Of a DNA stretch of 64,000 nucleotides, positions 15,772 to 15,964 are shown one piece after another (position 1 is the stretch's first letter; the number at the start of each line of letters is the position of its first letter). The position numbers and the translations under genes were made by a program. The notes under the pieces were generated by a model. The model did not search any database, had not been told where the DNA came from, and saw only the letters and a list, made by a program, of their open reading frames with translations. The stretch comes from Eledone cirrhosa (taxonomy: Eukaryota). Where the stretch lies: contig OZ024762.1 in NCBI GenBank assembly GCA_964016885.1, forward strand, positions 13,950,001 through 14,014,000, given 5' to 3'.

Positions 15772-15964
15772 AACGGAGGAGTTGTCGTAAGGAACCAGAT
15801 GGACCATAACGCACAAGAGTACTCAATACTTAGGGTAGTAGAGTAGGTAATAGGAGAAAGTATGACCCCGACGGCAGAGCTCAAGCCGTTTCGACGGCTA
15901 TTTCTGTTCAGAAATAGCCGCCGAAACGGCTTGAGCTCTGCCGTCGGGGTCATACTTTTTCCTA
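15772..15964 (-). mobile_element. Family D fold-back element (hammerhead 3' half), copy 1
   Basis: Arms ~15851-15906 and ~15908-15964 containing GAAA-CGGC-TTGAGCTCT-GCCG-TC; unique tail shared with the other copies; (TA)n flanks. Confidence 0.7.

What the first reader, a model, noticed from the sequence alone, without database searches (positions are those of the whole stretch)
15772..15964. Family D: fold-backs that pivot at the same point and duplicate only the hammerhead 3' half
Three copies (15772, 29272, 53518; fragment at ~55770) form a hairpin so that both strands read GTC/GCC-GAAA-CGGC-TTGAGCTCT-GCCG-TC-GGG. That is GAAA, stem III and a GUC triplet, with no CUGANGA. The pivot sits where the stem II loop would be. 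The short arm ends at TA/ATA microhomology with the (TA)n flank, while the long arm continues into a shared ~80-nt tail. Inference: cDNA snap-back at ribozyme stem II primes the inverted strand, or this is a propagating non-autonomous family that has lost the core.
Basis: partly seen in the sequence, partly recalled or inferred. Interest (0 to 1): 0.7.

Follow-up and report, generated by a model that had tools for sequence, protein, structure and literature searches.

The report
Penelope stubs ending inside their ribozyme
These small mirror-image repeats are back-to-back stubs of an abundant protein-coding Penelope-type jumping gene; most begin at one fixed base inside the gene's hammerhead RNA motif, likely where its messenger RNA starts, and a minority begin exactly at the motif's predicted cut site, likely a record that the RNA cuts itself in living cells.

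Summary
The fold-backs are real, with at least 15,000 exact-pattern matches genome-wide. They are the end region of a 3,531-bp Hydra-clade Penelope-like element with a 721-aa RT/GIY-YIG ORF. The parent has a complete type I hammerhead whose core is UUGANAA (published U3-A8 variant), so a CUGANGA search misses it. Both arms stop at or just inside one base (+1) in loop II, at a conserved T(T/C)AGT. None of 26 ORF-bearing copies stops there, so +1 is likely a transcription start, not an RT stall. The outer ends are two fixed RT start sites. The short-end arm carries more 5' sequence in 30 of 90 stubs and 6 of 10 long pairs, against snap-back and for priming from both target ends, mostly on one RNA (haplotypes agree in 52 of 55). 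A minor class pivots at the predicted cut, GUC^GGGG (about 55 of 100 rows). No RNA data test the start site, cleavage or circles. The scan reached this reading before on other DNA of this genome (e1-9939475, e1-9570153, e1-10329837). Known element type; useful mechanistic evidence.

The parts
15773..15906 (-). Copy 1, long arm: parent positions about +5 to +138 (3' half of hammerhead plus tail), ending at RT start site S2
15906..15962 (+). Copy 1, short arm: parent positions +2 to +58, ending at RT start site S1 (TTCC|TA); shares one base with the long arm
15920..15945 (+). Hammerhead 3' half in the short arm: end of stem II 3' strand, GAAA, stem III with GAGCTC loop, GUC triplet (predicted cut in the parent after 15945)
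29275..29331 (-). Copy 2, short arm, reaching +1; followed by 2 untemplated bases (29332-29333)
29334..29468 (+). Copy 2, long arm from +2 to S2
53519..53570 (-). Copy 3, short arm (to about +7; junction assignment ambiguous)
53571..53708 (+). Copy 3, long arm; its stem I bulge haplotype differs from that of the short arm (two source RNAs or a mosaic)
55772..55837 (+). Sister-family short-end arm (+4 to S1, 55781-55837) with a 9-nt inverted stub (55772-55780); parents of this family have core TTGATAA

Best explanation
The fold-backs are head-to-head stubs of a Hydra-clade Penelope-like retroelement, likely made when its reverse transcriptase primes from both ends of a cut in (TA)n at two fixed internal sites (+58, +138) and runs off the 5' end of the element's RNA, which likely starts inside loop II of its own hammerhead. 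SHOWN: parentage, the complete U3-A8 motif in the parent, the two fixed outer ends, the +1 limit, the class that pivots at the predicted cut, arm concordance. INFERRED: (a) +1 is a Pol II start, so the 5' copy of the ribozyme on the mRNA lacks its core and cannot cut; (b) the complete 3' copy cuts after +41 and removes both priming sites from the mRNA's 3' end, so this RNA can yield only 58- and 138-nt run-off cDNAs, which are joined 3' end to 3' end with small losses or additions; (c) RNA already cut by the ribozyme gives the rarer pivot at +42; (d) long and tandem copies come from another template, probably a ribozyme-cut and ligated circle or uncut read-through RNA.
For: Parent: L171 carries the family D sequence on both sides of a 721-aa ORF with DKT, YRDD, CxCx5C and GIY-YIG-type motifs; 62 of 62 scored genomic matches are 97-100% identical, tandem period 3,531 bp; the window's own subfamily lies on long copies 74-89% identical to that protein. 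Ribozyme: core constant except N7; MFE is the hammerhead fold in 2 of 3 parent regions; stem II changes on both sides between families. +1 limit: the further-reaching arm ends at +1/+2 in 53 of 90, at -1 to -5 in 14, none beyond; T(T/C)AGT stands at +1 in both sister families though loop II differs; 0 of 26 ORF copies with an upstream motif stop at +1, all extend 42 to >1,200 nt. Two primers: short end within 3 nt of S1 in 74 of 90; S1 also ends a 3.6-kb solo copy; 10 long pairs have one S1 and one S2 arm, S1 longer in 6. One template: 2.2 differences within against 5.6 between copies; haplotypes agree in 52 of 55, chance 0.29. Cut-site class: about 55 of 100 listed rows, 23 with untemplated bases between intact CCCC and GGG(G) (counted by eye); about 20 of 100 in the window's older haplotype. 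In vitro a Penelope-like RT extends both target strands and starts at two internal sites (PMC11167929).
Against: No RNA-level evidence for the start site, cleavage or circles. The TATA-like box at -29/-31 is absent from the sister family. The cap signature is only suggestive: G precedes +1 in 12 of 18 arms against 7 of 28 controls (p=0.007), but added A on the cDNA cannot be told from the TTT upstream, and two parent-type arms sit in that set. 18 of the 55 cut-site rows are blunt CCCC|GGGG, which a deletion between CG microhomologies would also give. Later deletions at the palindrome centre occur (stem III pivots dominate) and blur junction statistics. The 90 stubs come from the first 35 Mb of one contig and needed both arms to reach stem II; four of the 26 ORF loci belong to one array. 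One of three parent regions does not fold as a hammerhead and the young family's fold is no more stable than shuffles (z -0.09). The related PAc element did not need cleavage in vitro and no reads ended at its cut site (PMC11167929).
Confidence: 0.75

Rival explanations
1. Snap-back: one cDNA folds on itself near stem II and copies itself into the inverted arm (the first reader's model; self-priming was also proposed for head-to-head Penelope palindromes in PMC3846280).
For: Arms of a copy are nearly always of one haplotype (52 of 55) and share private changes (L316, L325, L346); some junctions hold short self-templated repeats (L272, L289); long arm reaches further in 43 of 90.
Against: Short arm reaches further in 30 of 90 and in 6 of 10 long pairs; S1 is a free-standing 3' end of long solo copies; junctions almost never contain loop II, which a stem II snap-back would carry; 3 of 55 arm pairs and window copy 3 differ in haplotype; two loci join a family D arm head-to-head to another element (L031, L054).
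Confidence: 0.08
2. Twin priming is right but +1 is not a transcription start: it is an RT stall in loop II, a splice acceptor (TTTAG) or a nuclease cut.
For: +1 lies 7 nt 5' of the extended stem II in both families, so structure and sequence are not separated; a small hairpin covers +1 in two subfamilies; the young families have a pyrimidine-rich tract ending in YAG there.
Against: A stall that stops most first passages (only about 3 of 56 arms pass beyond -5, by eye) should stop most second passages, yet 0 of 26 do; arms include the A and G of the AG; no constant leader or exon follows +1; the sister family has no pyrimidine tract.
Confidence: 0.12
3. The stubs are failed strong-stop intermediates: normally the short cDNA jumps to the repeated +1..+41 at the mRNA's 3' end, as in retroviral strand transfer, and long copies arise this way without a circle.
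For: A start at +1 and a cut at +41 would give a 41-nt terminal repeat; it needs no ligation step.
Against: With low jump efficiency most full-length copies should end at the second +1; 0 of 26 do.
Confidence: 0.12
4. A self-propagating non-autonomous family or DNA-transposon MITE.
For: Uniform ~190-bp size, TA flanks, very high copy number.
Against: Junctions differ copy by copy, so the unit is rebuilt at each insertion; no terminal inverted repeats; both ends and all haplotypes match coding parents; stubs end before the second hairpin that follows S2 in the parent.
Confidence: 0.03

Closest known systems
Hydra clade of C-terminal-endonuclease Penelope-like elements (Craig et al. 2021, PMC8557442; passages, section 11 and supplement rows read)
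   Same: Single ORF with DKT, RW motif, CxCx5C linker, C-terminal GIY-YIG; (TA)n target; partial tandems, inverted 5'-truncated partner and a tail on one end only. N-terminus resembles Hydra-1_Obim by eye (15 of the first 25 residues).
   Different: Unit 3.5 kb (reported Hydra mostly under 3 kb); tail 80 nt against 30-40; core U3-A8 where the three Hydra rows I saw in file S2 are CUGANGA; a dominant class of stubs that end at one base in loop II was not described in what I read.
U3-A8 hammerheads of Cercyon Penelope-like elements, Schistosoma mansoni (Cervera and De la Pena 2014, PMC4209133; parts 1-2 of 4 read)
   Same: Type I motif in the pLTR, U3-A8 core, G10.1-C11.1, long helix II; motif pairs on opposite strands 100-700 bp apart; the paper proposes cleavage, circles and more-than-unit copying.
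   Different: Here stem III is a full 4-5 bp with a 9-nt loop holding a palindrome, loop II is 26-36 nt and holds the likely start site; that paper states it had no in vivo evidence of cleavage.
PAc Poseidon element of Anolis (Frangieh et al. 2024, PMC11167929; parts 1-2 of 4 read)
   Same: Both target strands cut and extended; RT starts at two internal sites downstream of the ribozyme; the tail is the stretch between them; 5' truncation of the RNA shortens the product.
   Different: Different clade; start sites not homologous to target, whereas both ends here fall at a TA; no reads ended at its cut site, whereas here genomic copies do.
Penelope promoter studies (PMC2377424, PMC3846280; passages read) and plant retrozyme NbRZ1 (PMC12029980; abstract and section 2.1)
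   Same: Promoter and initiator in the pLTR/LTR, near a ribozyme in NbRZ1.
   Different: In NbRZ1 the start lies upstream of the ribozyme, which cuts off the cap and blocks translation; here the start would lie inside the motif and spare the cap.
Twin priming of L1 5' inversions (recalled, not read)
   Same: Both target ends prime on one RNA, giving an inverted 5' part.
   Different: In L1 the two cDNAs cover different parts of the RNA; here both cover the same 5' part and start at two fixed sites.

Membership tests
Penelope-like element, Hydra clade (parent) | Single ORF, RT followed by C-terminal GIY-YIG endonuclease | tested here: met
   721-aa ORF with YRDD and a C-terminal AYIG...Y region; homologues carry PF26215. 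Pfam itself gave no hit on this protein.
Penelope-like element, Hydra clade (parent) | DKT in place of DKG, RWK motif, CxCx5C linker, no CCHH | tested here: met
   SDKT, RWR, CNCPARSIC read against section 11; absence of CCHH judged by eye only.
Penelope-like element, Hydra clade (parent) | Phylogenetic placement within Hydra | not tested
   No tree built; likeness to Hydra-1_Obim by eye only.
Penelope-like element | pLTR by partial tandem, inverted partner, tail on one end, (TA)n target | tested here: met
Type I hammerhead (parent) | Three helices around core CUGANGA or covariant, GAAA, NUH, G10.1-C11.1 | tested here: met
   UUGANAA core with free N7, stems in 26 distinct motifs, MFE fold in 2 of 3. 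Rfam gave no hammerhead hit.
Type I hammerhead (parent) | Self-cleavage at NUH^ | not testable with these tools
   Indirect only: pile-up of arm ends at the predicted cut.
Type I hammerhead (the stubs themselves) | Complete core | tested here: not met
   Stubs begin in loop II; no core, no 5' strands of stems I and II in sense.
Non-LTR retrozyme | Non-coding head-to-tail repeats with a complete hammerhead per unit | tested here: not met
   Head-to-head, no core, coding parent; definition from 10.64898/2026.07.22.740005, part 1 of 5.
DNA-transposon MITE | Terminal inverted repeats and a conserved interior | tested here: not met
   Ends unlike each other; centre rebuilt per copy. Target duplication cannot be scored inside (TA)n.
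Pol III type-3 small RNA gene with retrocopies | U6-like upstream elements and T-run terminator | tested here: not met
   No evident likeness to U6 upstream regions of this genome; the tail runs on into the ORF.

The most novel reading that the evidence does not exclude
The element uses promoter placement as a switch on its own ribozyme: starting transcription inside loop II disarms the 5' hammerhead and keeps the cap for translation, while the complete 3' hammerhead strips the priming sites from the mRNA, so only ribozyme-cut circles give productive copies. The genome then holds a countable fossil record of all three templates (capped mRNA, cut linear RNA, circle), including base-exact evidence of hammerhead cleavage in vivo in a Penelope-like element.
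Probability: 0.45. Interest if true: 0.7.

Novelty: new variant of a known kind. Interest (0 to 1): 0.5.

Why it matters
How Penelope-like elements form their inverted and tandem insertions, and whether their hammerheads cut in cells, are stated open questions (PMC8557442, PMC4209133, PMC11167929). This young family, with dozens of near-identical full-length ORF copies and tens of thousands of stubs, argues for priming from both target ends over self-priming, places RNA 5' ends at two exact bases, and gives sharp predictions for an in vitro system. In practice it also warns that such palindromes are easily filed as MITEs or dead ribozymes, and that CUGANGA-only searches miss the parent.

Tried and rejected
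Search for a canonical core 5' of the inverted stem II strand: 0 matches. A looser CTGANGA search gave 63 matches; the 30 inspected were junction filler, mutated palindromes or neighbouring elements. Search for a 3' continuation with a non-A base after the long end missed the parent's continuation, which begins with TA, but exposed 4 of 30 loci with the upstream flank. Pol III master-gene idea dropped. tRNA-like head: not supported by folding or Rfam; ARAGORN not run. Folding of the single sense arm is no better than shuffles. Window ORFs: nothing bearing on the finding. The repeat finder was swamped by microsatellites. Sequencing runs: no RNA holder listed; contigs of two runs of unknown kind show loose ends into (TA)n at S1 and S2 and far more depth between +1 and S2 than upstream, but cannot show RNA starts and may be the source sample, so not counted. 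Literature searches that found no account of stubs ending at a start site inside the ribozyme, of twin priming in these elements, or of copies ending at the cut: (open-access library only; Repbase reports and subscription papers not searched; bioRxiv supplements closed).

Full report
Observation. Each full copy is about 190 bp between (TA)n runs: a short arm ending in TTCC|TA, inverted against a long arm that goes on into an 80-nt tail. The window lies in a 3.0-Gb genome. An oriented pattern finds 15,049 exact matches against 0 for the control. In 654 kb not chosen for the element (the window, 200 kb of its contig, 39 spaced stretches) there are 56 arms: 19 head-to-head pairs, 18 of them one short end with one long end, and 18 unpaired arms. 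That suggests tens of thousands of copies.

The parent. Four of 30 loci from a search on the tail shared an upstream flank. That flank has 618 first-look candidates, the 40 scored being 98-100% identical, and belongs to long, variably 5'-truncated copies with the same two 3' ends. L171 holds a whole unit: family D sequence, a 721-aa ORF starting at +232, a 3' UTR of about 1.1 kb, and family D sequence again, ending at the short end. All 62 scored protein matches are 97-100% identical and some lie in tandem with a period of 3,531 bp. The protein has the DKT, RW and CxCx5C marks that Craig et al. give for the Hydra clade; no tree was built and Pfam gave no hit, though homologues at about 40% identity carry PF26215. 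The window's own subfamily lies on long copies 74-89% identical to this protein. So family D is the pLTR region and tail of a coding Penelope-like element.

The hammerhead. Among 139 parent-type arms positions 3-6, 8 and 9 are at least 95% constant and position 7 takes all four bases (the set is dominated by one young subfamily and holds three mis-anchored rows). U3-A8 is a published core variant in Schistosoma elements (PMC4209133). Two of three parent regions fold as a hammerhead at minimum energy, one with z -2.3, one no better than shuffles. The sister family of the 55770 fragment has core TTGATAA and two-sided changes in stem II. Rfam does not recognise the motif.

The pivot. In 90 consecutive stubs from one contig the further-reaching arm ends at +1 or +2 in 53, at +3 to +8 in 23, at -1 to -5 in 14, never beyond (the pattern allowed 30 nt between the stems). 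Junctions are blunt in 25, share 1-4 bases in 34 and hold inserted bases in 31. +1 is the A of T(T/C)AGT in both families although loop II differs; this matches the initiator consensus as I recall it, and a TATA-like box lies 29-31 nt upstream in two subfamilies but not in the sister. If +1 were a stall, copies long enough to meet it twice should mostly stop there; of 30 ORF loci, 26 have the upstream motif and all extend 42 to over 1,200 nt beyond +1, while 4 begin inside or past the tail (four loci are one array). So +1 is best read as the physical 5' end of a separate RNA class. An extra G precedes +1 in 12 of 18 arms against 7 of 28 controls, as expected if RT copies a cap (recalled), but this is weak for the reasons given under evidence against.

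Two primers, one RNA. The short arm carries more 5' sequence than the long arm in 30 of 90, less in 43, equal in 17. Of 20 long loci, 10 are clean pairs with one end of each kind, and the short-end arm is the longer in 6. Arms of one copy differ at 2.2 sites on average against 5.6 between copies and share a common haplotype in 52 of 55 scorable copies, chance 0.29. This fits the in vitro finding that a Penelope-like RT extends both target strands from two internal sites (PMC11167929), and argues against the self-priming proposed for such palindromes (PMC3846280). A few arms past each end lies a similar bulged hairpin; the second is the minimum-energy fold, the first is not when folded alone.

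The cut-site class. A pattern for very short fold-backs of the youngest haplotype gives 319 matches; in about 55 of the 100 rows listed both arms stop at or just inside GUC^GGGG, 18 blunt and 23 with untemplated bases, mostly A or T, between intact CCCC and GGG(G) (counted by eye). In the window's older haplotype the share is about 20 of 100 rows, 7 with such inserts, and pivots at microhomologies in stem III dominate, probably later deletions. The class is roughly 30- to 40-fold rarer than the +1 class (rough, since the patterns differ). The inserted bases at the exact site are hard to explain by deletion and most simply record RNA 5' ends made by the ribozyme.

Mechanism and odds. Parentage about 0.97; priming from both ends about 0.85; +1 as transcription start about 0.8; cleavage in vivo about 0.75; circle as the template of long copies about 0.55. 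A start in loop II leaves the mRNA's 5' ribozyme without a core, while the complete 3' copy would cut 17 and 97 nt upstream of the two priming sites; such an RNA can give only the stubs. That accounts for the missing CUGANGA, the shared pivot and the abundance without a separate non-autonomous family.

Novelty. The element type, the tail, the inverted partner and the U3-A8 core are in print. I found no account of a start site inside the ribozyme, of copies ending at the cut, or of twin priming in these elements in nine searches of the open library. This scan's own notes already report the same reading on other DNA of this genome; the Hydra and twin-hairpin leads came, while the U3-A8 core, the start-site argument and the cut-site class were found here before searches were read. 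Those notes are not independent support. Verdict: real, a new variant of a known kind, interest 0.5.

Noticed in passing
window:29217-29297: A second, inverted copy of the last 23 bases of copy 2's short arm lies across the (TA)n run, making a small palindrome about the TA tract.
   Followed up: no
window:53749-53938: Another fold-back in (TA)n, next to copy 3, with a CTGATGA at its centre and a tail that shares the motif GTACTCAATAC with family D.
   Followed up: no
window:24750-25073 and 25117-25425: Further fold-backs in (TA)n; the first has a canonical minimal hammerhead with a palindromic TGCGCA stem III.
   Followed up: no
L031:1150-1512 and L054:1150-1512: A family D long arm joined head-to-head to a different hammerhead-bearing element that also begins at TCAGTT; two independent loci with the same partner end, suggesting two different RNAs copied at one cut and a start site of the same kind in an unrelated family.
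   Followed up: partly
L158, L406, L367: Parent-type arms with C3-A8 or U3-G8 cores (4 of 139); both arms of L406 share C3-A8, so that RNA was copied with a mismatched core.
   Followed up: partly
L038, L094, L250, L041: Stubs whose arms run 15-27 nt upstream of +1 into loop II, in two cases on both arms: a minor class of longer RNAs.
   Followed up: partly
G000:C1:437200456-437213202: Four-unit tandem array of the full 3,531-bp coding element; similar arrays at C2:51.28 Mb, C19:15.58 Mb, C1:91.47 Mb.
   Followed up: no
G000:C19:31780605-31840331: Tandem array of about 30 U6 snRNA genes with a period near 1.8 kb.
   Followed up: no
window:5350-5605 and 59310-60581: A ~180-250-bp dispersed repeat with at least 12 copies in the window, arranged as a 170-bp tandem at 59.8-60.5 kb.
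   Followed up: no
L053:1380-1545: A family D long arm preceded by a perfect ~110-bp palindrome of unrelated sequence ending at +1.
   Followed up: no
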